Position numbers and translations under genes: made by a program. Under the pieces are notes generated by a model. It did not search any database. It worked only from the letters and a program-made list of their open reading frames with translations, and had not been told where the DNA came from. From the sequence record LC739530.1: a DNA stretch of 64,000 bases; one strand, given 5' to 3'. Each line of letters begins with the position of its first letter. The first letter of the stretch is position 1. This stretch comes from Escherichia phage phiWec172. Positions 14,232-38,134 of this stretch are shown here, piece after piece.

Positions 14232-14723
14232 TTAGTTATGTCTTGCAAACTCACCATGAAGTTCTATTCGCTTTTTAATTACAGCTTCTTTTGCTTCTTC
14301 TACCGTTTTAAATCTTCCACAAAAGTATTCTTTACGGTAAAGCATGACTCTTGCTTTGTAAAGACCTGTTTGTTTACAAAAACTTACACCCTTCACACCA
14401 GTTTTATTATTCTTGTGTATACCCCTATTCCTCTGATTTTGTGACTTTGTGCTAAGTCTTAAATTCTCCAACTTATTATTAGCTTTATCAAGGTCTATGT
14501 GGTCTATCTCATATCCACTTGGTATCTCACCTCCAGACATAATCCATGCAATATTATGTGCATAGTACCTCTTCTTATTTATCTGGACTTGGATATAACC
14601 CTTCTTAGACCTTGTGCCAGCCACATTACCAGCAATAGCGGTACTGCAAAGGGTTACTCTCCAAATTAATAAACCTGTATCTGGTTCATATATTAGGTAT
14701 TTTTCAAAATAACCCTTATTCAT
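14232..14723 (-). CDS. HNH homing endonuclease with AP2 DNA-binding domain
   Basis: IDHIDLDKANNKLENLRLSTKSQN (HNH) and GVKGVSF..GLYKARV..GRFKTVEEAKEA (AP2-like). Confidence 0.7.
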   Translation of the reverse strand: MNKGYFEKYLIYEPDTGLLIWRVTLCSTAIAGNVAGTRSKKGYIQVQINKKRYYAHNIAWIMSGGEIPSGYEIDHIDLDKANNKLENLRLSTKSQNQRNRGIHKNNKTGVKGVSFCKQTGLYKARVMLYRKEYFCGRFKTVEEAKEAVIKKRIELHGEFARHN

Positions 14724-15628: not shown

Positions 15629-15903
15629 TCAAAAGTTACGTTTGTTACTGCCATTGCAGATTTGCATTTTGCAGGGTCTACAACGTGATAAAGTACACTA
15701 CAGTTACCTGTGCTGTCTGGTACAGGCTTTACCCATTGCTGCTTTATAGTTGGCTCTCCTAAGTCTTTGTAAGAACCATCTGTAAAGTTGTTTACCATCT
15801 CAAGTGCAATTGGCTCTGGAACATGACCACGTATCATGTACATTTCACAACCATTACCTCCTTCACTGACTAATGGTAAAATCTCCCACTTTTCTTTAGC
15901 CAT
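15625..15903 (-). CDS. hypothetical protein
   Basis: 92-aa ORF. Confidence 0.4.
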   Translation of the reverse strand: MAKEKWEILPLVSEGGNGCEMYMIRGHVPEPIALEMVNNFTDGSYKDLGEPTIKQQWVKPVPDSTGNCSVLYHVVDPAKCKSAMAVTNVTFD

Positions 15904-16411
15904 TGTAAGTTGCCCTATAAACTGTCTCGAACTTCAACAGGAGAGATATTGCCAAATCTGTATAGTGGTTGTCAAGCACATCTGGCATATTATTTTTGAT
16001 ATATTTCTCTTGCTCTTCGTAGGTCATCTTAGGGGTACTTAAAAGACTATCCCCTTGCTTCTGGTTATCAAGTTTAGTCTGGATAAACCAGTTTGCACAG
16101 TGATGTTCACCACCTTTTGTAACAGGTTTGTGGTGACCTAATGTGAAGGATTGACTGCCTGTGTATCTGCAAAGTTTATTGAGTACTGTAATGGTGTTCT
16201 TCACAACAAAGCATTCATATAGGTTGTCTATGGTATAGTGTGGGTAATATCGAAATAATGCTCTTTCACGAGTACTCTCACGATTCCAGAGAATCATGTG
16301 ATTGGAGTTGGAAGGGTCGTATTGGTGAGAGTCAATGAACTCTTGACGTTCCTCAAAACTGAGTCTTAACACTGACATTGCAGCAGAACGTTTCAGATTT
16401 GACAGATACAT
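15896..16411 (-). CDS. hypothetical protein
   Basis: 171-aa ORF. Confidence 0.4.
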   Translation of the reverse strand: MYLSNLKRSAAMSVLRLSFEERQEFIDSHQYDPSNSNHMILWNRESTRERALFRYYPHYTIDNLYECFVVKNTITVLNKLCRYTGSQSFTLGHHKPVTKGGEHHCANWFIQTKLDNQKQGDSLLSTPKMTYEEQEKYIKNNMPDVLDNHYTDLAISLLLKFETVYRATYNG

Positions 16412-18572: not shown

Positions 18573-19520
18573 TTACATAGAGACTCTATCACGAATCTCA
18601 GCGATTTTTGCATCGTTCATTCGGGATTCACCTTTAATCTTAGTCCATCCAAGATACCCACACACCCTGTTAATCACAGAGATATCATGTGAATGGCAAA
18701 CCTCACATTCTTCAACATCAGCCTTTGGTCTGTTACCACAATGTTCACAGATTGCTAAGTCAAAGTTAAGCCCCTGATAAAAACCTTTCAACATCCCTCT
18801 GGTAATACAACTTTTAAGTGCTGTTAAGTTTTCTGGGTTAGCTACCCTGACATACTGGATTCTCCCACCTCTACAGATATGGAAGAATGGCTCTTCTAAG
18901 TCCTGCTTCTCAAATGGTGATATGTCTGCTGCAACATTCATATGGAAACTGTTTGTAAAGTATTCCTTATCAGAAACACCTTTGATAACGCCAAACATAT
19001 CTCTGAACTGTTTTAGCTGAGTTCCGCAAAGTGATTCTGCTGGAGTACCATAGACGGCATATAAGAAGCCGTCTTCATTTTTAAACTCTTCAGTTTTCAT
19101 GTTAATGTATGCCAGAACATCGTATGTAAAACTACAGCTTCCAACTTCATGAAGCCGTTTACCTTCAGCAAGAACAGATAGCTCATCAAGCGCAGTAACC
19201 CCAAAAGAAGCTGTGAAGGACTTCACAATATCCCAACCAACCCTGTCAGTAGGATTCTTAGTTCCTTTATACAGACCACCTTGTGTAAATGCAAGAGGGT
19301 TAGAACTTGCTGGCATATTAGCAATCATTTCGTAGCGTTTCTTGTGGAAGCTGCGAATTATTTCTAGGTACTTATCAAGCTCTTTCCAGAAATCTAAACC
19401 ATTCTCTTTAGAATACTGGTAAATCATCGGTAAGTTCAAAGATACAGCACCAATGTTTGCACGACCTACATAAAACTCTTCACCATATTCGTTATAGTAT
19501 GGTGATAAAAATGCTCTACA
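18573..19520 (-). CDS. nrdD: Anaerobic ribonucleoside-triphosphate reductase NrdD, exon 2 (glycyl-radical and zinc-ribbon region)
   Basis: Glycyl-radical motif RVCGYLG, Cys cluster CEHCG..CEVC; open frame extends upstream of track start to CRAFLSPYY... Confidence 0.65.
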   Translation of the reverse strand, partial: CRAFLSPYYNEYGEEFYVGRANIGAVSLNLPMIYQYSKENGLDFWKELDKYLEIIRSFHKKRYEMIANMPASSNPLAFTQGGLYKGTKNPTDRVGWDIVKSFTASFGVTALDELSVLAEGKRLHEVGSCSFTYDVLAYINMKTEEFKNEDGFLYAVYGTPAESLCGTQLKQFRDMFGVIKGVSDKEYFTNSFHMNVAADISPFEKQDLEEPFFHICRGGRIQYVRVANPENLTALKSCITRGMLKGFYQGLNFDLAICEHCGNRPKADVEECEVCHSHDISVINRVCGYLGWTKIKGESRMNDAKIAEIRDRVSM

Positions 19521-20262
19521 CTTGTTGTTCAGGTAAGTTCGCTAAGCTTACCCCGCTTTATTCAAGCTGCTTACTGTCGCCAGTAAGTCCAGACTATATC
19601 TTCTACTTATTTCTAAGTAGCGTACCATTTCGAGTCGCTTGACCCTACACCGCTACATTCATCACGGTTAGTCGTTCGGCATTTAGATGTATTCAAACTC
19701 ATACTCAAAGTTATTATGCTCTTTCACACCCTTCAATATTGAAGAGATGGTCTTGCGATTGTGTCCAAGTATATTGGATAACTCTCGTATTGACTTAGCA
19801 ACAATAACTTCCTTTGTCACTTTGTGTGTGGCTTTCACGGCATATGAACGCTTTTGGAACTTGTAGCATCCGTTCTCATAACCTTCTTTAGCATTCTCAG
19901 AATGAGTACCCCATTCTAAGTTAGATGCGTGGTTATTTAGTTTGTTATCGTCCTTATGTTTTACAATTGGAAGATTATTTGGGTTAGGTACATACTTCTC
20001 AGCAACTAACCTGTGGACATACATGTCACGATTCTTCTTACCGTAAAACCTCACTTTCATATACCCAGTGTTGGATTTCCACTGCGTAAGCTCTACACCA
20101 TTTTCCCTAAAGACTTTTCCATCTTCAGTGACGTGATAGTTTGGCATGTAAGACTCCTATGTTGTATAGTTTCTTACATCGTACATCATTTAGCACAGGA
20201 TTGTCTACATATGTAGAGTTTCCCTGTTTAGGCACGTTTTAGATGAGCTATAGAGCCTGTTA
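19521..20262 (-). mobile_element. Group I intron in nrdD carrying an HNH endonuclease ORF
   Basis: Exon 1 ends in U, in-frame TAA right after; P-like AACAGGGAAAC, Q-like AAUCCUGUGC, R-like UCAAGCGACUCG, S-like AGAUAUAGUCUGG; terminal G before exon 2. Confidence 0.6.
19683..20147 (-). CDS. HNH homing endonuclease (intron-encoded)
   Basis: HKDDNKLNNHASNLEWGTHSEN HNH motif; lies inside the nrdD intron. Confidence 0.65.
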   Translation of the reverse strand: MPNYHVTEDGKVFRENGVELTQWKSNTGYMKVRFYGKKNRDMYVHRLVAEKYVPNPNNLPIVKHKDDNKLNNHASNLEWGTHSENAKEGYENGCYKFQKRSYAVKATHKVTKEVIVAKSIRELSNILGHNRKTISSILKGVKEHNNFEYEFEYI

Positions 20263-25951: not shown

Positions 25952-26276
25952 GGTATTTCTCCAAGTTTCTTTTTAGATACAACCAACCATCGTCAGTTCT
26001 TTCTACACCCATAAAGAGGGGGGCCATCACAACTTTCCCAAAAGTATTTCTGTGTTGGCAGATTTCAAAGGAATACTCTTTCTCAATATCAATCCCGTAT
26101 TTGTACAGGACTGCTTTTAAAACTTGTTCATTGTCCAGAAGTGTATCTGGAGTCTCACCATACTTTTCAAGTAACGGGTCATTCATAAACACCGTCATAG
26201 AAATATTGTAGTTTGAGAAGTGGCTCTTCTGAGCCACACCCTCTTTATTAATGTTCTGTGAATCCATTATAACCAA
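25944..26276 (-). CDS. hypothetical protein
   Basis: 110-aa ORF. Confidence 0.4.
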   Translation of the reverse strand: MVIMDSQNINKEGVAQKSHFSNYNISMTVFMNDPLLEKYGETPDTLLDNEQVLKAVLYKYGIDIEKEYSFEICQHRNTFGKVVMAPLFMGVERTDDGWLYLKRNLEKYRV

Positions 26277-27003
26277 CCCCTTTTAACCAGCACTTCAGGT
26301 TATTAGCATCATAATTCAGTTTCGGGTATGAGGTTACATGGAACTGCTCACCATCATAGTAGACAATATCTGCAATCCATAGTCCATTCTCTTTACAGAA
26401 GTCTTTATCTGCTTTAGAGGTAATTGGATTAACTTCTACAAAACCATCTACACCCAAATCCTTTAAGCTACCTACAAGACCTTTGCAGATAACGCATGTC
26501 TCAGATACTACCACAAAAAGTTCTTGGCTTTCAAGTTCTACAATGTATTCACCAAGCTGTACTTTAGGGAGATTCGATTGCTTCATAATCTTCCCATCTG
26601 CTGCACGAACAATTGCATACCACTCTTTACCATCAACTACTGACATTCTGATAATACACTCTTGACCAGTACGCTTTTCAATGTCTGCAAGACGCTTTAA
26701 AGCTTCTTCATAGTCATCTGTGTACTTCAGGTCATTATTATGGCAAACAGCTTTCATAGCACCGTTATGGTCATGTTGTGACAGGTAAATCAAGCCGTCA
26801 AGAACATATTGTAAATCTGCCTGAGCATCCAGTGTCTCAATGGGGTCTTTCTCTTCAATTGCTTTTACAAGCTCTTTTGCTTCTTCAAGCATACACAGAG
26901 ATTGAGATTTTAAAGATTCCCAATACTCATCACTGTAAGGTTGCTTTTGAGTGTTTCCACAACGAAGGTTCCAGTTTTTTACTGATTCTCTTGAGTTAAA
27001 CAT
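26248..27003 (-). CDS. hypothetical protein
   Basis: 251-aa ORF. Confidence 0.45.
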   Translation of the reverse strand: MFNSRESVKNWNLRCGNTQKQPYSDEYWESLKSQSLCMLEEAKELVKAIEEKDPIETLDAQADLQYVLDGLIYLSQHDHNGAMKAVCHNNDLKYTDDYEEALKRLADIEKRTGQECIIRMSVVDGKEWYAIVRAADGKIMKQSNLPKVQLGEYIVELESQELFVVVSETCVICKGLVGSLKDLGVDGFVEVNPITSKADKDFCKENGLWIADIVYYDGEQFHVTSYPKLNYDANNLKCWLKGVGYNGFTEH

Positions 27004-27242
27004 TCGGACTCCTTAAAATATTTGTTAACCTTTAGCTCTCGTGTTTCAATATATTCTAGATGTTCACGTAGCTCTTGACGTTTAAGCATTAGGTGCTGCA
27101 TTTGAGATTCAACAGCTTCAACTTCTTTAATTATTGACTCTTTAGCATTTGCAAGAATGCGCTCAAGTTCTTCAATCTTGCTGTCAACTTTTGCTACATG
27201 ACTTACAGCTTTACTTTTGTTAAACATTTTATTCTCTCTCAA
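26979..27242 (-). CDS. hypothetical coiled-coil protein
   Basis: 87 aa, charged heptad-like sequence. Confidence 0.35.
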   Translation of the reverse strand: MRENKMFNKSKAVSHVAKVDSKIEELERILANAKESIIKEVEAVESQMQHLMLKRQELREHLEYIETRELKVNKYFKESECLTQENQ

Positions 27243-27248
27243 TAGTTA

Positions 27249-27746
27249 TCAAGCACAATTTGCTTTCATTACCTTATGGATTCTTTTTTCAGCATCTTCA
27301 TAAGTTTCTTTAGTAATAAACTTAATTGCTGCAATATTGGCATTGTAGAAGAGTCTGAGCTTCGAGTCAATCCTTTTTGTCATTACATCGAACTTATGTT
27401 GAAGGTTTGCTTCACCATAAACTAGGCCACCTTTTGTGTAGTAGGTTTGGATAATGTAAAAGTCAAAAAATTCTTTTCCAAAACTCTCAATATCTTTTTT
27501 AATATACTCAGAAGAAGTCTCGTAAGTCATCCAATCACTTTCCTTAGTGACTATTTTCTTCCGAGTCTTACCAGCAACTTTTCTTTTGGTCACGCTATTA
27601 AACTGTTTCCTTCCGATATAATATTGTCCAGTCTTCTTACAGTGTACTAAATAGATAAAGCCAAAATGTTTAGTGGGGTCAACTTCCCCACATAAAGATA
27701 CCCAATGACCATAGGTAGGGTAATTACCAAATCCTTTAATCTTCAT
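27249..27746 (-). CDS. GIY-YIG homing endonuclease
   Basis: GFIYLVHCKKTGQYYIGRKQ (GIY...YIG motif) near N-terminus; free-standing between DNA-metabolism genes. Confidence 0.6.
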   Translation of the reverse strand: MKIKGFGNYPTYGHWVSLCGEVDPTKHFGFIYLVHCKKTGQYYIGRKQFNSVTKRKVAGKTRKKIVTKESDWMTYETSSEYIKKDIESFGKEFFDFYIIQTYYTKGGLVYGEANLQHKFDVMTKRIDSKLRLFYNANIAAIKFITKETYEDAEKRIHKVMKANCA

Positions 27747-28776
27747 TCATACAAGGCTCCCAATTATATTTCTTAAAAGTAAAATCGTCTTTCTTGTTTC
27801 TTTCCTGATAAGCTAAGAAAAAGTGTTGCTGCATTAACTCTAAAGGTGTTCTGGTAATTGTTTGACCATCCCACGAGACATAAGTGTATGACTCTTTCTT
27901 AGCATAAAGTTCATAGATAGCATCAAGACACTCTTTGTAAGTGGTTTTACCTTCAAGGGCTTTCATTATAGTAGCCTTACCAACACCCTTTAAACCAAAA
28001 TAATTATCCGCATTATCACCAGCCACAGCTTGGTAACAAAGGAATTTAAAACCTACCCCAACTGTCTTCTTAGCTTTTGGTGTCGATTTTATTGGACAAT
28101 CCCAAATTTCACCAACGTTGTTATCAGCAATGAAAATCAAAGGTGACTTTTCATAGGTCATATCAATACAGTAAGTCCCTTCAGCTTGGCGAAGGTCTTT
28201 ATCAATACTCATTAAGGCAGCCTTTTTTCCCATCTTTTCAGCTTTAGCAATAACGATAGAGTCAGCTTCAAATCCATCAAGAATCAATTTGAACTCTGGT
28301 CTTGACAGAAGATATTCACGACAAGCAACTAAGTGTGTTGGTGTGACAGCATCTTTACGGTTACCTTGATATTGGTGCTCAAGACCTTTAATGTCTTTGT
28401 GTTTATGCACACCTTTCTCTGTTAAATAACCTACCCAAGTTCTCTCTTTACCAACAACCTTAAGCCATTCCTGAAGCACCTGTTGAGTAGCCATGATAGC
28501 TTCTTTTTCACTCTTAGCTTCTTTCCAAGTCTGTCTTTCCCATTCATCTTCATCAAATGTCAGGCCAAGTTCTTCCACAAGGATTCTCTGGTCTGCTAAC
28601 CATCTTGCAGCATCTTTCGCATTATCAAATGGCTCAGATTCTTCTGCTGTGAGTTTATTGACATATTTATATTTTGCTTTCTCAACTACACAAGCACCTT
28701 TGTAGGCAATACTGTCAGAGTCAATAAAAACATGTGTAACTGAATCGGGAAGTTTTGTTAATGTGTACTTCTCCAT
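27736..28776 (-). CDS. 5-prime to 3-prime exonuclease / flap endonuclease (RNase H-like)
   Basis: N-terminal acidic motif VFIDSDSIAYKGA and H3TH-like AGDNADNYFGLKGVGKATIMKAL. Confidence 0.65.
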   Translation of the reverse strand: MEKYTLTKLPDSVTHVFIDSDSIAYKGACVVEKAKYKYVNKLTAEESEPFDNAKDAARWLADQRILVEELGLTFDEDEWERQTWKEAKSEKEAIMATQQVLQEWLKVVGKERTWVGYLTEKGVHKHKDIKGLEHQYQGNRKDAVTPTHLVACREYLLSRPEFKLILDGFEADSIVIAKAEKMGKKAALMSIDKDLRQAEGTYCIDMTYEKSPLIFIADNNVGEIWDCPIKSTPKAKKTVGVGFKFLCYQAVAGDNADNYFGLKGVGKATIMKALEGKTTYKECLDAIYELYAKKESYTYVSWDGQTITRTPLELMQQHFFLAYQERNKKDDFTFKKYNWEPCMNED

Positions 28777-34654: not shown

Positions 34655-36797
34655 ATGGAAAACGTAGATTTTAAGAACTTACATTTGGTTGGTGATACAG
34701 AAACTGATGGTTTACTCCTTGAGTTCACTAAAGTGCACGTAATGGCTTTCGCAGACTATAAATCTGACGATGAAGAGCCACCTGTATGGGTCTTTACAGA
34801 TGAGCCTATCCTCGGTCACAAGTATACCAAGTACATTAAGGGTGGTTTACGTGAAGGTGTTGAATTTGCGTTAAAGGCAAAACGTCTTTGCATCCATAAC
34901 GGTCTCGGTTATGACTGGTGGGTCTTCAATCACATTGCACCTGATTTATGGAACTTTGATAATCCAAAATGTAAGCCGTGGAGTAATTTCTTTCAGGATT
35001 CTCTTATCCAGTCTCGTGTTCAGTGGATGGATAGACCAACTCCAAAGGGTTATAAAGGTGCTCATGGTTTGGCTGCATGGGGTGCTCGTGTTGGTGTTCG
35101 TAAGCCAGAGATTGAACATTGGGGTGTGTGGAATGCAGAAATCTTCACTCGTGTTGTAGAAGATATCCGTATTAACGCCAAAACTAAACGGGCACTTGAT
35201 AACGAGTATCTCAAGCTTAAGAAGTGTGGTATAGACACTTATGAAACTTACATGCGAGCTAAAGAAACATCTTTCTGGATGAGTCAACAAGCTATCAATG
35301 GTTGGAAAGCTGATAAAGAGCTTATGGAGTTCCATGTAAAGGAACTTGACAAGTTGACTAATGAGCTTGCTTCAGAGGTTGAACCACATCTACCTCCAAC
35401 TATTAAGACCAAAGGTAAAGTGACTGGAGAAGAGTTTGCAAAAGCTTGGAATGAGTATGTTGAAACATTTGGTCATGCAGATGGACTGAAAAGAATTACC
35501 AAGTACCCTAAAACAAAGTATCGTCAGCAGGTGCGTAACGGTGAGATGCAGACATACGAAATCAAGCCATTTGGTAAGCCAACTACAAAGATTTTTAACA
35601 TTGAAAAAAGAAATTGCTATACACCAACCAACTCTGTAACTGGTGAAGAGTACAAGGAAGGTTTTGTAGCAATGAAGGATGCTCGTGCAATTTGCAATGA
35701 GTTGAATGCAAAGATTGGTAAGAAGTGCAAAGACTGGAAGCCAGTAAAAACAGTCAAAACTGTGAAGTACTATAACAGCCACGTTGTTAACCACTTTGAA
35801 CTTGAGTCAAGTCGCTACACAGGTTTGATTGATGCACCATATACACCAATTGAGTTCGAAGTTTCTCGCATGACTCAGGTAGCAGTTGTTAAAGACTACT
35901 TGAAATCAGTTGGTTGGATTCCAGATGACTGGAACTACAAGAAAGACTCAGACGGTCGCCCTGTCAAAGTTTGTCGTTTCAAAGACAATAAAAAGATGAT
36001 TACAAAGCATCCTAAGTGGCAGGAAATGGTTGAGCGGTGTGGTTTGAGCTATGTTGAGCATGAAGGTGTACAGTACATTGAGCATAACTGGTCTGTGAAG
36101 AAATACACAGATTTGCTTGAGCCTTGCTTAATCCGTACTTCACCAAAACTTACTGAGTCATCTTATGATACGATTGAAGGTGAGCTTGGACAGAAGATTG
36201 CTAAGTACTATACTTTGATGCACCGACGCAGAACTATTGAGAACTCAAAGGATGATGAAAAAGGTTGGTTGAACCAGATTCGTCCTGATGGTCGCCTTAG
36301 TGCTGGTGCAATGGTGTTTGGCACTTCAACTGGACGTATGACACAATATGGTATTGTAAACGTACCATCTGGTGCTGCTGTCTATGGAGCGCCTATGAGG
36401 GAGGTGTGGATTTGTGAGGAAGGGACTAATATCGTTTCAGTTGACCAGAACTCTGCACAGCTTGTTTTACTGTGTAACTTTATGGGTGATAAAGACTTCA
36501 CCAAAGCGGTAACTGAAGGTAAAGAGTTTGTAGAGTTCACTAAACAGGATGATGGACGATACTACTGCAAGCATCTTGATAAGTACCTAAATCCAGAGGC
36601 TGATAAATATTGTCGTTACGATGCTGATAATGATTTGTATGAAGTCTACACAGGTACTGATGCGCATACACTTAACAGTATTTACTTTGGTCTGAACAAG
36701 GAAGAAGATATTGTTCGTTGTAGGGAGACACAGGATGAGGAACTTCTTCATGAGATTACAAAAGGTCGTAAGAAGAGCAAAAATGGCATTTATGCGT
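34655..36797 (+). CDS. DNA polymerase (family A), exon 1: 3-prime-5-prime exonuclease and N-terminal polymerase region up to motif B
   Basis: Exo motif GDTETDG; ends ...KKSKNGIYA within motif B; track ORF runs to stop at 36838 inside the intron. Confidence 0.7.
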
Positions 36798-37065
36798 CAG
36801 TGGCGCATGTAAAACGTTGTGAATTGCTGGAAGCCTAAGTCTGTAAAGATATGGTAATCAGCAGCGAAGCCTCTTAAGAGGAACGTTCAGAGACTATCGA
36901 AAAGCATACTTAACGTATGAACTGAGTAGAGTAGGGTGGTAAGCTAATGACCATCCCCAAGTGCAACGGTAGTATTACTACTACGTGATATAGTCCGACA
37001 CTCCGTAGAAATGCGGAGAAGTTCATAAGAGAACTGGTACACCTTGCGAGTGTATTGACCAGATG
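36798..37065 (+). ncRNA. ORF-less group I intron (about 268 nt) interrupting DNA polymerase motif B
   Basis: P1: exon AUGCGU pairs with intron GCGCAU (U.G at splice site); P AAUUGCUGGAAG, Q AAUCAGCAGC, R GUUCAGAGACUA, S GAUAUAGUCC; terminal G; splice restores ...GIYALLFGAGDEK... Confidence 0.75.
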
Positions 37066-37622
37066 TATTGTTCGGGGCTGGAGACGAGAAGTTTGCAAAA
37101 ACTATCAAGGCATCATCTACGGAAGAAGGTGCATTGACTAAACAAACTTACTATATGCGTCTGCCAAAGATTAAGAAGTTACTTGATAGCTTAGAAGCCG
37201 ATTTTAAGGCGTCTAAAAAGGCTCTGGAAGAGGTTTTTGGGAAGAATTCTTCAATTGCTAAAGGTGGTTATATCAGGGTCGCTGGAGCATGGATATGGTG
37301 CAAATCTCCACATAAACTACTGAACTACCTCCTGATGAGTTCGGAAGCACAGATTCAGAATGAGGCCATCAACCTTGCAGCAAGAAAAGCCTGTGAAGAT
37401 GGCCTGACAAAACTGAATGCTCGAAAACCAGCTATCGGAGCAAGGTTGCTTCTGGCATATCACGATGAAAATAGTTGGGAATGTCCAGAGGGTATGACAC
37501 AGGATATGAAAGCAATTGCTGACTGGATGTATGGACAAGCTTCAAAAAACTTAGGTTTGAGGAAAGAAACACTTGTAACTGGTACAGCAAAGGTTGGTAA
37601 GTCGTGGTATGAGGTACATTGA
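37066..37622 (+). CDS. DNA polymerase (family A), exon 2: motif B C-terminal half and motif C
   Basis: FGAGDEK(F) matches T7 YGAGDEK; motif C LLLAYHDENSWE. Confidence 0.7.
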
Positions 37623-38134
37623 TGAGAGATTGTGGATTCACACATGAACAGTTAAAATCTTGGTTAGATTATGACCCCGAAACAGGGGTCTTAACATGGA
37701 TTGGTAGACCTCCACACAGTAGTAGGGTGGTTATTGGAAGCCAAGCCGGAGCAATTAAGCGCACAAGGTCTGGTGTGTATATGCACACACAGATTTTAGG
37801 ATACAGGACAGGCAATCACCGAATTGCTTGGTTCTGGATGACAGGCAAGTGGCCTGATAAGCAAATTGACCACAAAGATGGAGATGGTTTGAATAACGCT
37901 TGGGACAATCTAAGAGAGGCCACAAAAGAACAGAACATGTCTAATAGGAGACAACCTAGAACATCAAAAAACTTAAAAGGTACAAGTAGAAGTAAGTCTG
38001 GTAAGTGGAAAGCCCAGATTAACCATAATGGCAAGACTATACATATAGGGACATACACAACAGAAGAAGAAGCCCATAAAGCTTACTGTGAAGCTGCTAT
38101 TAAACTCCACGGAGAGTTTGCAAAACTAAGTTGA
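37619..38134 (+). CDS. HNH homing endonuclease with AP2 domain (free-standing, abutting polymerase exon 2)
   Basis: IDHKDGDGLNNAWDNLREATKEQN (HNH); GKWKAQINHNGKTIHIGTYTTEEEAHKAY (AP2); start overlaps polymerase stop (TGATG). Confidence 0.7.
   Translation: MMRDCGFTHEQLKSWLDYDPETGVLTWIGRPPHSSRVVIGSQAGAIKRTRSGVYMHTQILGYRTGNHRIAWFWMTGKWPDKQIDHKDGDGLNNAWDNLREATKEQNMSNRRQPRTSKNLKGTSRSKSGKWKAQINHNGKTIHIGTYTTEEEAHKAYCEAAIKLHGEFAKLS

What the first reader, a model, noticed from the sequence alone, without database searches (positions are those of the whole stretch)
27249..27746. GIY-YIG homing endonuclease between replication genes; four endonucleases of three families in the window
Besides the intron-encoded HNH (19683..20147) and the two HNH-AP2 genes (14232..14723, 37619..38134), a GIY-YIG endonuclease lies between the flap endonuclease and an upstream hypothetical gene. 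All are next to conserved DNA/nucleotide-metabolism genes (nadV/prs, nrdD, FEN, polymerase), the typical targets of endonuclease homing. These sites are likely recombination hotspots and differ between related phages.
Basis: partly seen in the sequence, partly recalled or inferred. Interest (0 to 1): 0.45.

Follow-up and report, generated by a model that had tools for sequence, protein, structure and literature searches.

The report
Conserved short GIY-YIG nuclease, not mobile
The gene is a real GIY-YIG nuclease, but unlike the three HNH endonuclease genes nearby it is present in every relative of this Felix O1-like phage and strongly conserved, so it looks like a fixed housekeeping nuclease and not a mobile homing endonuclease.

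Summary

The "homing endonuclease that differs between related phages" reading fails for the GIY-YIG gene:
- It occurs in 297 phage records, with the same genus counts as the neighbouring 5'-3' exonuclease (303 records).
- It keeps the same position in the five Ounavirinae lineages examined and overlaps the upstream exonuclease gene's stop codon in four of them.
- Its dN/dS is 0.04-0.09, like the exonuclease.
- It lacks the NUMOD/HTH DNA-binding tail found on the long members of its family that were scanned.

By contrast, each HNH allele is found in only about 50-60 records. The mobile element at this locus is a different HNH-AP2 gene, inserted exactly at the exonuclease|GIY-YIG junction in roughly a third of relatives but absent here.

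Best reading: a fixed, domain-only nuclease co-expressed with the exonuclease. Its biochemical role is inferred, not shown. Ordinary to modestly interesting.

The parts
27249..27746 (-). 165-aa domain-only SegE-type GIY-YIG nuclease gene, a core gene of Ounavirinae. Databases call it either 'GIY-YIG homing endonuclease' or, wrongly, 'NAD synthetase'.
27606..27662 (-). Codons for residues 29-47, the GIY...YIG motif (G29 F30 I31 Y32 ... Y43 I44 G45 R46 K47).
   Evidence: G29, Y32, Y43, G45 and K47 are invariant in 151 diverse family members and in 80 short forms.
27537..27602 (-). Codons for residues 49-70, a lysine/arginine-rich beta-hairpin inserted after the YIG strand. It is a candidate DNA-binding surface (inferred).
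   Evidence: The AF2 model has strands at 50-56 and 63-69. The family consensus is K/R-rich at these positions.
27342..27413 (-). Codons for E112 through N135, the presumed metal-binding Glu and the structural Asn of the GIY-YIG active site.
   Evidence: E112 and N135 are invariant in 151 sequences. Equivalence to I-TevI E75 and N90 is inferred from motif order and helix position, not from a residue-level superposition.
27736..27746 (-). 11-nt overlap between the exonuclease stop codon and the GIY-YIG start codon (translational coupling). In other phages this is the exact insertion point of an HNH-AP2 gene.
   Evidence: Coordinates. Alignment with wV8, VpaE1, Sf19 and Bas63. Equivalent overlaps occur in Kolesnikvirus, Mooglevirus and Pectobacterium phages.
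27736..28776 (-). 5'-3' exonuclease (FEN / RNase H-like) gene, immediately upstream of and co-conserved with the GIY-YIG gene.
   Evidence: PHROG 107 E=7.8e-66. Weak Pfam 5_3_exonuc hits. tblastn finds 303 records.
26979..27242 (-). 87-aa coiled-coil hypothetical gene downstream. It evolves fast (23-27% identity between genera).
   Evidence: PHROG 4442. Identities.
14232..14723 (-). Free-standing HNH-AP2 homing endonuclease gene between nadV and prs. Its distribution is sporadic.
   Evidence: Pfam HNH_3 E=5.6e-19. 61 records at >=80% coverage. Absent in allfine and Bas63.
19683..20147 (-). HNH endonuclease gene inside the roughly 820-nt insertion (probable group I intron, about 19440..20259) that splits nrdD.
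   Evidence: Pfam HNH_3. Rfam sub-threshold hits. Joined nrdD CDS in Bas63. 60 records at >=80% coverage.
37619..38134 (+). Free-standing HNH-AP2 gene directly after DNA polymerase exon 2. Other phages carry divergent alleles at the same site.
   Evidence: Pfam HNH_3 + AP2. 49 full-length and 158 partial matches.
36796..37065 (+). [quoted passage not shown] It is not part of the finding but belongs to the same set of mobile elements.
   Evidence: Rfam RF00028 63.8 bits at 36735..37018. Boundaries from blastn against the intron-less Bas63 polymerase gene.

Best explanation
The ORF encodes a catalytically intact GIY-YIG nuclease that consists of the catalytic domain alone. It carries a basic beta-hairpin insertion and a short C-terminal helix. 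It is a vertically inherited core gene of the Ounavirinae replication and nucleotide-metabolism operon and is translationally coupled to the 5'-3' exonuclease gene. It is not a currently mobile homing endonuclease.

It probably shares ancestry with seg-type homing endonucleases, because its catalytic domain is 46-50% identical to long family members, at least one of them NUMOD3-bearing. It has either lost or never had the DNA-binding tail that gives those enzymes site specificity.

Inferred mechanism, not shown: it makes nicks or breaks with little sequence specificity, binding DNA through the basic hairpin and/or by oligomerising. This would supply entry points for the co-expressed 5'-3' exonuclease, either in host-DNA breakdown for nucleotide salvage or in trimming branched replication intermediates. 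That makes it an endonuclease/exonuclease pair analogous to T7 gp3/gp6 or to T4 EndoII plus exonucleases.

The homing activity at this locus belongs to a separate HNH-AP2 gene that inserts at the exonuclease|GIY-YIG junction in other phages.
For: Shown:
- GIY-YIG identity.
- All ten residues invariant across 151 family representatives are present: G29 Y32 Y43 G45 K47 W72 Y75 S78 E112 N135.
- The gene DNA is found in 297 records, with the same genus counts as the exonuclease protein in 303 records: Escherichia 119/119, Salmonella 80/80, Erwinia 29/29, Shigella 23/23, Citrobacter 11/11, Hafnia 3/3. The Pectobacterium phages are found by protein search at 50% identity.
- The order primase - hyp - exonuclease - GIY-YIG - hyp - MazG ... 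nrdA is conserved in five lineages.
- Start/stop overlap with the upstream gene is kept in four of the five lineages (in the Hafnia phage the two genes are adjacent), also when an HNH gene is inserted.
- dN/dS is 0.044-0.092 against 0.043-0.095 for the exonuclease. Identity to Kolesnikvirus is 60%, against 55% for the exonuclease, 38% for MazG and 23% for the small hypothetical gene.
- Only 19 residues follow the domain. Of the 150 top family representatives, 81 are longer than 210 aa. All ten long ones scanned carry a hit to a NUMOD3, NUMOD-like or HTH DNA-binding module, some below Pfam's cut-off.
- There is no strong promoter of its own.

Supporting the inferred role:
- The gene sits in a block with RNR, dNMP kinase, a MazG-like pyrophosphatase and the exonuclease.
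- No Holliday-junction resolvase or other recombination nuclease is annotated in a PHROG-annotated Felixounavirus genome.
- Short homologues are widespread in cyanomyoviruses, about 400 records.
Against: - No biochemical or genetic data exist for this protein or any close relative. The role with the exonuclease rests on gene adjacency only.
- Bas63 is sensitive to several restriction systems (PMC8594841). This suggests ordinary DNA, so a non-specific nuclease would have no obvious way to spare phage DNA.
- The canonical GIY-YIG arginine (I-TevI R27) has no clear invariant counterpart. An invariant K47 is present instead.
- Phage EC6 carries the gene as two ORFs. The gene may therefore be dispensable, or that record has a sequencing error.
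- The best structural neighbour is a homing endonuclease domain (I-TevI). It is not EndoII or Slx1.
- Some 'short' family members from metagenomes may be truncated ORFs.
Confidence: 0.55

Rival explanations
1. One reading: an active free-standing GIY-YIG homing endonuclease. It would cut the allele of related phages that lacks it, near the exonuclease gene, and spread by gene conversion.
For: - The Pfam family is named after T4 SegE.
- The catalytic domain is 46-50% identical to long family members, at least one of which (P0014) carries NUMOD3.
- The position, between conserved replication genes, is typical for such genes.
- A patch of 17 mismatches in 27250..27750 against the near-identical phage allfine indicates local recombination.
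Against: - No empty allele in about 300 related genomes.
- Synteny and coupling are kept across genera at 50-60% protein identity.
- dN/dS of about 0.05-0.09 equals that of the exonuclease.
- No DNA-binding domain.
- No promoter of its own.
- The mismatch patch is better explained by the HNH-AP2 element that uses the adjacent junction in other phages.
Confidence: 0.07
2. A counter-defence or competition nuclease. It would destroy a host immune nucleic acid (for example retron msDNA), a satellite or plasmid, or the DNA of co-infecting phages. Domesticated T5orf172 nucleases such as ICP1 Odn work this way.
For: - Domesticated homing-endonuclease nuclease domains with such roles are documented (PMC10055350).
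- A PhageMaP preprint states that a Bas63 'GIY-YIG' gene, gp77, counters retron Ec67 (PMC11482910).
Against: - By locus tag, gp77 is bas63_0077, the orthologue of window 15896..16411. The orthologue of this ORF is bas63_0057.
- Accessory counter-defence genes are usually variable. This gene is universal and slow-evolving, and it is embedded in the replication operon.
- It has no targeting domain.
Confidence: 0.15
3. A nuclease-derived protein that now acts without cutting, for example as a DNA-binding or regulatory factor or as a structural partner of the exonuclease.
For: - I-TevI also acts as a repressor (established knowledge; cited in PMC10055350).
- No invariant arginine equivalent to I-TevI R27 was identified.
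- The basic hairpin could bind DNA.
Against: Every residue invariant across the family, including the presumed metal-binding E112 and N135 and both motif tyrosines, is retained in all Ounavirinae sequences. Loss of catalysis normally relaxes these positions.
Confidence: 0.08

Closest known systems
Pfam PF19835 SegE_GIY-YIG family (named after T4 SegE), long seg-type homing endonucleases
   Same: Same catalytic-domain family: 97.7 bits, and all family-invariant residues are present. It shares the N-terminal H-W strand and the basic hairpin after the YIG strand. Domain identity to long members is 46-50%.
   Different: It has no NUMOD3, NUMOD1 or HTH tail. It is universal in its phage subfamily, not sporadic. 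Pairwise BLASTP against T4 SegE and SegD themselves aligns only the 17-residue motif (E=1.1 and 1.5).
I-TevI catalytic domain (PDB 1LN0)
   Different: Sequence identity is 16%. I-TevI is intron-encoded and needs a linker plus a C-terminal DNA-binding domain. The protein here has an extra N-terminal strand, a 22-residue basic hairpin and a C-terminal helix.
T4 endonuclease II (DenA, PDB 2WSH)
   Different: It is a different GIY-YIG subfamily with no sequence-level match. T4 protects its own DNA with hydroxymethylcytosine. No such protection is evident for Felixounavirus.
T7 gene 3 endonuclease with gene 6 5'-3' exonuclease
   Same: A phage endonuclease working with a FEN-family 5'-3' exonuclease on unmodified DNA, in host-DNA breakdown and debranching (established knowledge). 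This is the functional analogy for the coupled GIY-YIG/exonuclease gene pair.
   Different: T7 gp3 has an unrelated fold. The analogy rests only on gene adjacency and co-conservation.

Membership tests
GIY-YIG nuclease superfamily | GIY and YIG motifs on two adjacent beta-strands | tested here: met
   F30-I31-Y32 and Y43-I44-G45. Y32, Y43 and G45 are invariant in 151 sequences. The strands are at 29-36 and 42-48 in the model.
GIY-YIG nuclease superfamily | Conserved metal-binding Glu and structural Asn (I-TevI E75, N90) | tested here: met
   E112 (in helix 105-118) and N135 are invariant in 151 sequences. Residue equivalence is inferred from motif order.
GIY-YIG nuclease superfamily | Conserved catalytic Arg (I-TevI R27) | tested here: inconclusive
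   No invariant Arg was found. Invariant K47 and W72/Y75/S78 occupy the region. No residue-level superposition was made.
GIY-YIG nuclease superfamily | GIY-YIG alpha/beta fold | tested here: met
GIY-YIG nuclease superfamily | Metal-dependent DNA cleavage | not testable with these tools
   Requires purified protein.
Pfam SegE_GIY-YIG (PF19835) | Score above the curated gathering threshold | tested here: met
   97.7 bits against a cut-off of 25.
Free-standing (seg-type) homing endonuclease | Sporadic presence/absence among closely related genomes | tested here: not met
   297 records carry the gene and 303 carry the neighbouring exonuclease, with identical genus counts. The three HNH genes are in 49-61 records each at >=80% coverage.
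Free-standing (seg-type) homing endonuclease | Separate DNA-binding module (NUMOD, HTH, zinc finger) that gives site specificity | tested here: not met
   Pfam finds only the catalytic domain, and 19 residues follow it. All ten long relatives scanned have a hit to a NUMOD3, NUMOD-like or HTH module, some below cut-off.
Free-standing (seg-type) homing endonuclease | Evolves as a selfish element (horizontal spread, relaxed constraint, decay) | tested here: not met
   dN/dS is 0.044-0.092. The ranking of identities across genera parallels that of the exonuclease.
Free-standing (seg-type) homing endonuclease | Cleaves the cognate allele that lacks the gene | not testable with these tools
   No empty allele was found in the phage collection.
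NAD synthetase (the database label on many orthologues) | NAD synthase / PP-loop ATPase domain | tested here: not met
   Pfam and NCBIfam return no such domain, only SegE_GIY-YIG. The label comes with PHROG 447.
T4 EndoII-like host-DNA nuclease | Sequence or close structural relationship to DenA | tested here: not met

The most novel reading that the evidence does not exclude
A homing-endonuclease-type (SegE-like) GIY-YIG domain has been stripped to its catalytic core and fixed as an indispensable housekeeping nuclease. It would work with the FEN-type exonuclease as the phage's host-DNA-degrading and/or debranching enzyme, in a subfamily that has no recognisable resolvase. Related domain-only forms may have been retained independently in cyanomyoviruses, where they are mislabelled 'NAD synthetase'.
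Probability: 0.25. Interest if true: 0.55.

Novelty: new member of a known kind. Interest (0 to 1): 0.3.

Why it matters
- Annotation. Databases label this gene either 'GIY-YIG homing endonuclease' or 'NAD synthetase', and neither fits. It is a universally conserved nuclease of unknown role in a phage group widely used for Salmonella and E. coli biocontrol.
- Comparative genomics. Separating it from the truly mobile HNH genes shows which sites drive mosaicism in these genomes: nadV|prs, the nrdD intron, the polymerase 3' end and the exonuclease|GIY-YIG junction.
- Evolution of homing endonucleases. It is a candidate case of a homing-endonuclease catalytic domain kept for the phage's own benefit, and it can be tested directly in the tractable phage Bas63.

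Tried and rejected
- Lead from the PhageMaP preprint (PMC11482910), which says a Bas63 'GIY-YIG' gene, gp77, counters retron Ec67. The preprint's g65, g79/80 and g84/85 match the locus tags, so gp77 = bas63_0077, the orthologue of window 15896..16411. That protein has no GIY-YIG signal: Pfam finds none, hhalign against the family gives probability 0.2%, and there is a weak hit to an HNH PHROG. Our ORF is bas63_0057. The lead was rejected for this gene. No supplementary fitness table was available.
- Sequence searches of the PDB, with the single sequence and with a profile, found nothing.
- The word-indexed protein search gave only 12 hits. The exhaustive profile search gave 2292.
- BLASTP against T4 SegE and SegD was not significant.
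- The promoter/terminator scan was uninformative beyond showing no strong promoter directly upstream.
- A search for further GIY-YIG paralogues in the window found none.
- Nearest-neighbour analysis asked whether short and long family members form separate clades. They do not clearly: 88 of 151 nearest neighbours are of the same class, against about 50% expected by chance.

Full report
**Identity of the window.** A 3-kb stretch around the finding is 100% identical to Escherichia phage phiWec174 (LC739531.1; window coordinate = record coordinate + 1). It is 95-99% identical to many Felixounavirus genomes. The window therefore comes from a Felix O1-like myovirus (Ounavirinae) of about 86 kb.

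**The observation.** ORF 27249..27746 on the minus strand is real: ATG start, 165 aa.
- It matches Pfam PF19835 'SegE_GIY-YIG' at 97.7 bits (cut-off 25, E=7.6e-28, residues 21-138) and nothing else.
- It matches PHROG 447 at E=1.8e-47. That PHROG carries the label 'NAD synthetase', but neither Pfam nor NCBIfam finds any NAD-synthase domain. The label is an annotation artefact.
- A first AlphaFold2 model from 11 sequences was weak in the catalytic half. A second, from an 80-sequence alignment, has pLDDT 94.7 and pTM 0.88.

The three HNH genes are also confirmed by Pfam and PHROGs. The two HNH-AP2 proteins are paralogues of each other.

**Distribution contradicts the homing reading for the GIY-YIG gene.**
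- The GIY-YIG gene's DNA is found in 297 phage records. The protein of the adjacent 5'-3' exonuclease, taken as a core marker, is found in 303.
- The genus counts are the same for both: Escherichia 119, Salmonella 80, Erwinia 29, Shigella 23, 'Felixounavirus' 14, Citrobacter 11, Enterobacteria 9, Hafnia 3. The Pectobacterium phages are picked up at protein level, at 50% identity.
- By contrast, the three HNH genes of the window are found at >=80% coverage in 60, 61 and 49 records.
- The gene order primase/helicase - hypothetical - exonuclease - GIY-YIG - small hypothetical - MazG-like ... nrdA is the same in Felixounavirus (allfine, Bas63, wV8, VpaE1), Mooglevirus (Sf19), Kolesnikvirus (vEam_PM_27, ST-3), Hafnia phage Zyzzx and Pectobacterium phage Arno162.
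- In four of these five lineages the GIY-YIG start codon overlaps the stop codon of the upstream gene (in the Hafnia phage the two genes are adjacent, not overlapping). In the window the overlap with the exonuclease gene is 11 nt.

**Selection.** Pairwise Nei-Gojobori estimates against Bas63, wV8, VpaE1, allfine and Sf19 give dN/dS of 0.044-0.092 for the GIY-YIG gene and 0.043-0.095 for the exonuclease. Against Kolesnikvirus the GIY-YIG protein keeps 60% identity, compared with 55% for the exonuclease, 38% for the MazG-like protein and 23% for the small hypothetical protein. This is the signature of a vertically inherited gene with a function. It is not that of a selfish element or a decaying remnant.

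**Architecture.**
- An exhaustive profile search of 1.84 billion cluster representatives finds 2292 relatives at E<=1e-3.
- The best 150 are bimodal in length: 69 are 201 aa or shorter and 81 are longer than 210 aa.
- Ten long ones were scanned, and all ten give a hit to a NUMOD3, NUMOD-like or HTH module behind the catalytic domain, some below Pfam's cut-off. These are the DNA-binding 'beads' of seg-type homing endonucleases.
- The window protein has only 19 residues after the domain, modelled as a single helix.
- Ten positions are invariant across 151 sequences, and all are present here: G29, Y32, Y43, G45, K47, W72, Y75, S78, E112, N135. They include both motif tyrosines, the presumed metal-binding glutamate and the structural asparagine. 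No invariant arginine equivalent to I-TevI R27 was identified.
- A family-specific 22-residue K/R-rich beta-hairpin follows the YIG strand.
- Short and long forms are interspersed and do not form separate clades. Nearest neighbours are of the same class in 88 of 151 cases, and the window protein's domain is 46-50% identical to several long forms. The tail has therefore been gained or lost repeatedly.
- Despite the Pfam name, BLASTP against T4 SegE and SegD aligns only the 17-residue motif.

**What is mobile at this locus.** In wV8 and VpaE1 (and, by annotation or coverage pattern, in FO1a, Moogle, EC6, HY02, dune, fjerdesal, Si3 and others) an HNH or HNH-AP2 gene of about 0.5 kb sits exactly between the exonuclease and the GIY-YIG gene.
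- The insertion starts in the last codons of the exonuclease gene and ends with its stop codon overlapping the GIY-YIG start. It also supplies a replacement Shine-Dalgarno sequence.
- The wV8 and VpaE1 inserts are divergent alleles. The last ~25 nt of the exonuclease gene differ between occupied and empty sites.
- In evenly spaced samples of the hit lists, about a third of Felixounavirus/Mooglevirus records have this insert: 7 of 20 rows, and about 18 of 60 rows. The second figure is partly inferred from match coordinates.
- The window's phage has the empty site.
- In the comparison with the otherwise near-identical phage allfine, 17 mismatches cluster in 27250..27750. Fourteen of them fall in the 5' half of the GIY-YIG gene, which abuts the junction. 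The flanking stretch from about 24.0 to 28.5 kb is almost identical.

This pattern is what co-conversion from homing at the junction would leave, although mosaic patches are common elsewhere in these genomes too.

**The other elements.**
- The nadV|prs HNH-AP2 (14232..14723) is precisely absent in allfine and Bas63.
- The HNH at 19683..20147 lies in an insertion of about 820 nt that splits nrdD. Rfam gives sub-threshold group I hits there (33.1 bits, E=3e-6), and the Bas63 record joins the two nrdD exons around the same gene.
- The HNH-AP2 at 37619..38134 follows DNA polymerase exon 2. Other phages carry divergent alleles at the same place.
- The polymerase gene itself is interrupted by an ORF-less 270-nt group I intron at 36796..37065. 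Rfam scores 63.8 bits there, above threshold. The boundaries come from comparison with the intron-less Bas63 gene.

**Mechanism.**
- Shown: an intact GIY-YIG active-site signature, no targeting domain, fixation in the subfamily, strong purifying selection, and co-transcription/translational coupling with the exonuclease.
- Inferred: the protein is a nuclease serving the phage itself. It would bind DNA through the basic hairpin and/or by oligomerising, as the domain-only GIY-YIG enzymes EndoII and R.Eco29kI do (established knowledge). It would create nicks or breaks that the co-expressed 5'-3' exonuclease enlarges.
- The two most likely substrates are host DNA (nucleotide salvage, fitting the surrounding RNR, dNMP-kinase and MazG genes) and branched replication intermediates. 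A PHROG-annotated Felixounavirus genome lists no resolvase or other recombination nuclease.
- The closest functional analogies are T7 gp3/gp6 and T4 EndoII. I put about 0.9 on 'fixed, non-homing nuclease' and about 0.3 on the specific partnership with the exonuclease.
- Against a non-specific nuclease: Bas63 is sensitive to restriction systems, so its DNA is probably unmodified (PMC8594841). In addition, phage EC6 carries the gene as two ORFs.

**A literature lead that did not hold.** A PhageMaP preprint reports that Bas63 'gp77', said to contain a GIY-YIG domain, counters retron Ec67 (PMC11482910). The preprint's numbering matches the GenBank locus tags for genes 65, 79, 80, 84 and 85. So gp77 is bas63_0077, whose orthologue is window 15896..16411, whereas our ORF corresponds to bas63_0057. 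The gp77 orthologue shows no GIY-YIG signal and has an HNH-like motif.

**Verdict.** Homing endonucleases in Felix O1-like phages have been known since the Felix O1 genome paper, which counted six HNH genes (PMC3185647). As a catalogue of homing endonucleases the finding is therefore ordinary. The modestly interesting residue is a universally conserved, mis-annotated, domain-only SegE-type nuclease of unknown role.

Noticed in passing
window 36796..37065 (+): An ORF-less 270-nt group I intron interrupts the DNA polymerase gene (Rfam RF00028, 63.8 bits, above threshold). It is absent from the Bas63 and FGS030 polymerase genes. Exon 2 is only 73% identical to Bas63, against 94% for exon 1, and a free-standing HNH-AP2 gene follows directly. 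The arrangement resembles an intron plus free-standing endonuclease 'collaborative homing' pair.
   Followed up: partly
window 15896..16411 (-): A 171-aa protein, orthologue of bas63_0077. This is the 'gp77' that a PhageMaP preprint calls a GIY-YIG protein and a counter to retron Ec67. Profile searches find no GIY-YIG signal here. The motif GHHKPVTKGGEHHCANW...N and a weak PHROG hit suggest an HNH-type nuclease. The gene is missing in phage FGS030.
   Followed up: partly
window 27250..27750: Seventeen mismatches against phage allfine cluster in the GIY-YIG gene, 14 of them in its 5' half next to the exonuclease junction. The surrounding stretch of about 4.5 kb is nearly identical. This looks like a local gene-conversion tract.
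   Followed up: partly
L005 1980..2504 (wV8) and L013 2998..3513 (VpaE1), corresponding to window junction 27736..27746: Two divergent HNH-AP2 alleles occupy exactly the exonuclease|GIY-YIG junction in other Felixounaviruses. Both preserve translational coupling to the GIY-YIG gene.
   Followed up: yes
Escherichia phage EC6, NC_027369.1 58566..59061: The orthologous GIY-YIG gene is annotated as two ORFs (87 and 91 aa). This is either a frameshift or a sequencing error. It is the only apparent disruption seen among the hits that were listed.
   Followed up: no
L004 3920..4387 (Synechococcus phage syn9 gp202) and about 400 other cyanophage records: Short (about 155 aa) homologues at 29-40% identity, labelled 'NAD synthetase', sit at similar genome positions in many cyanomyoviruses. 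They may be a second lineage in which a domain-only form is conserved.
   Followed up: no
window 26248..27003 (-): A MazG-like nucleotide pyrophosphohydrolase (PHROG 2144, Pfam PRA-PH) lies two genes downstream of the GIY-YIG gene. It is conserved in position but evolves much faster (38-42% identity between genera).
   Followed up: no
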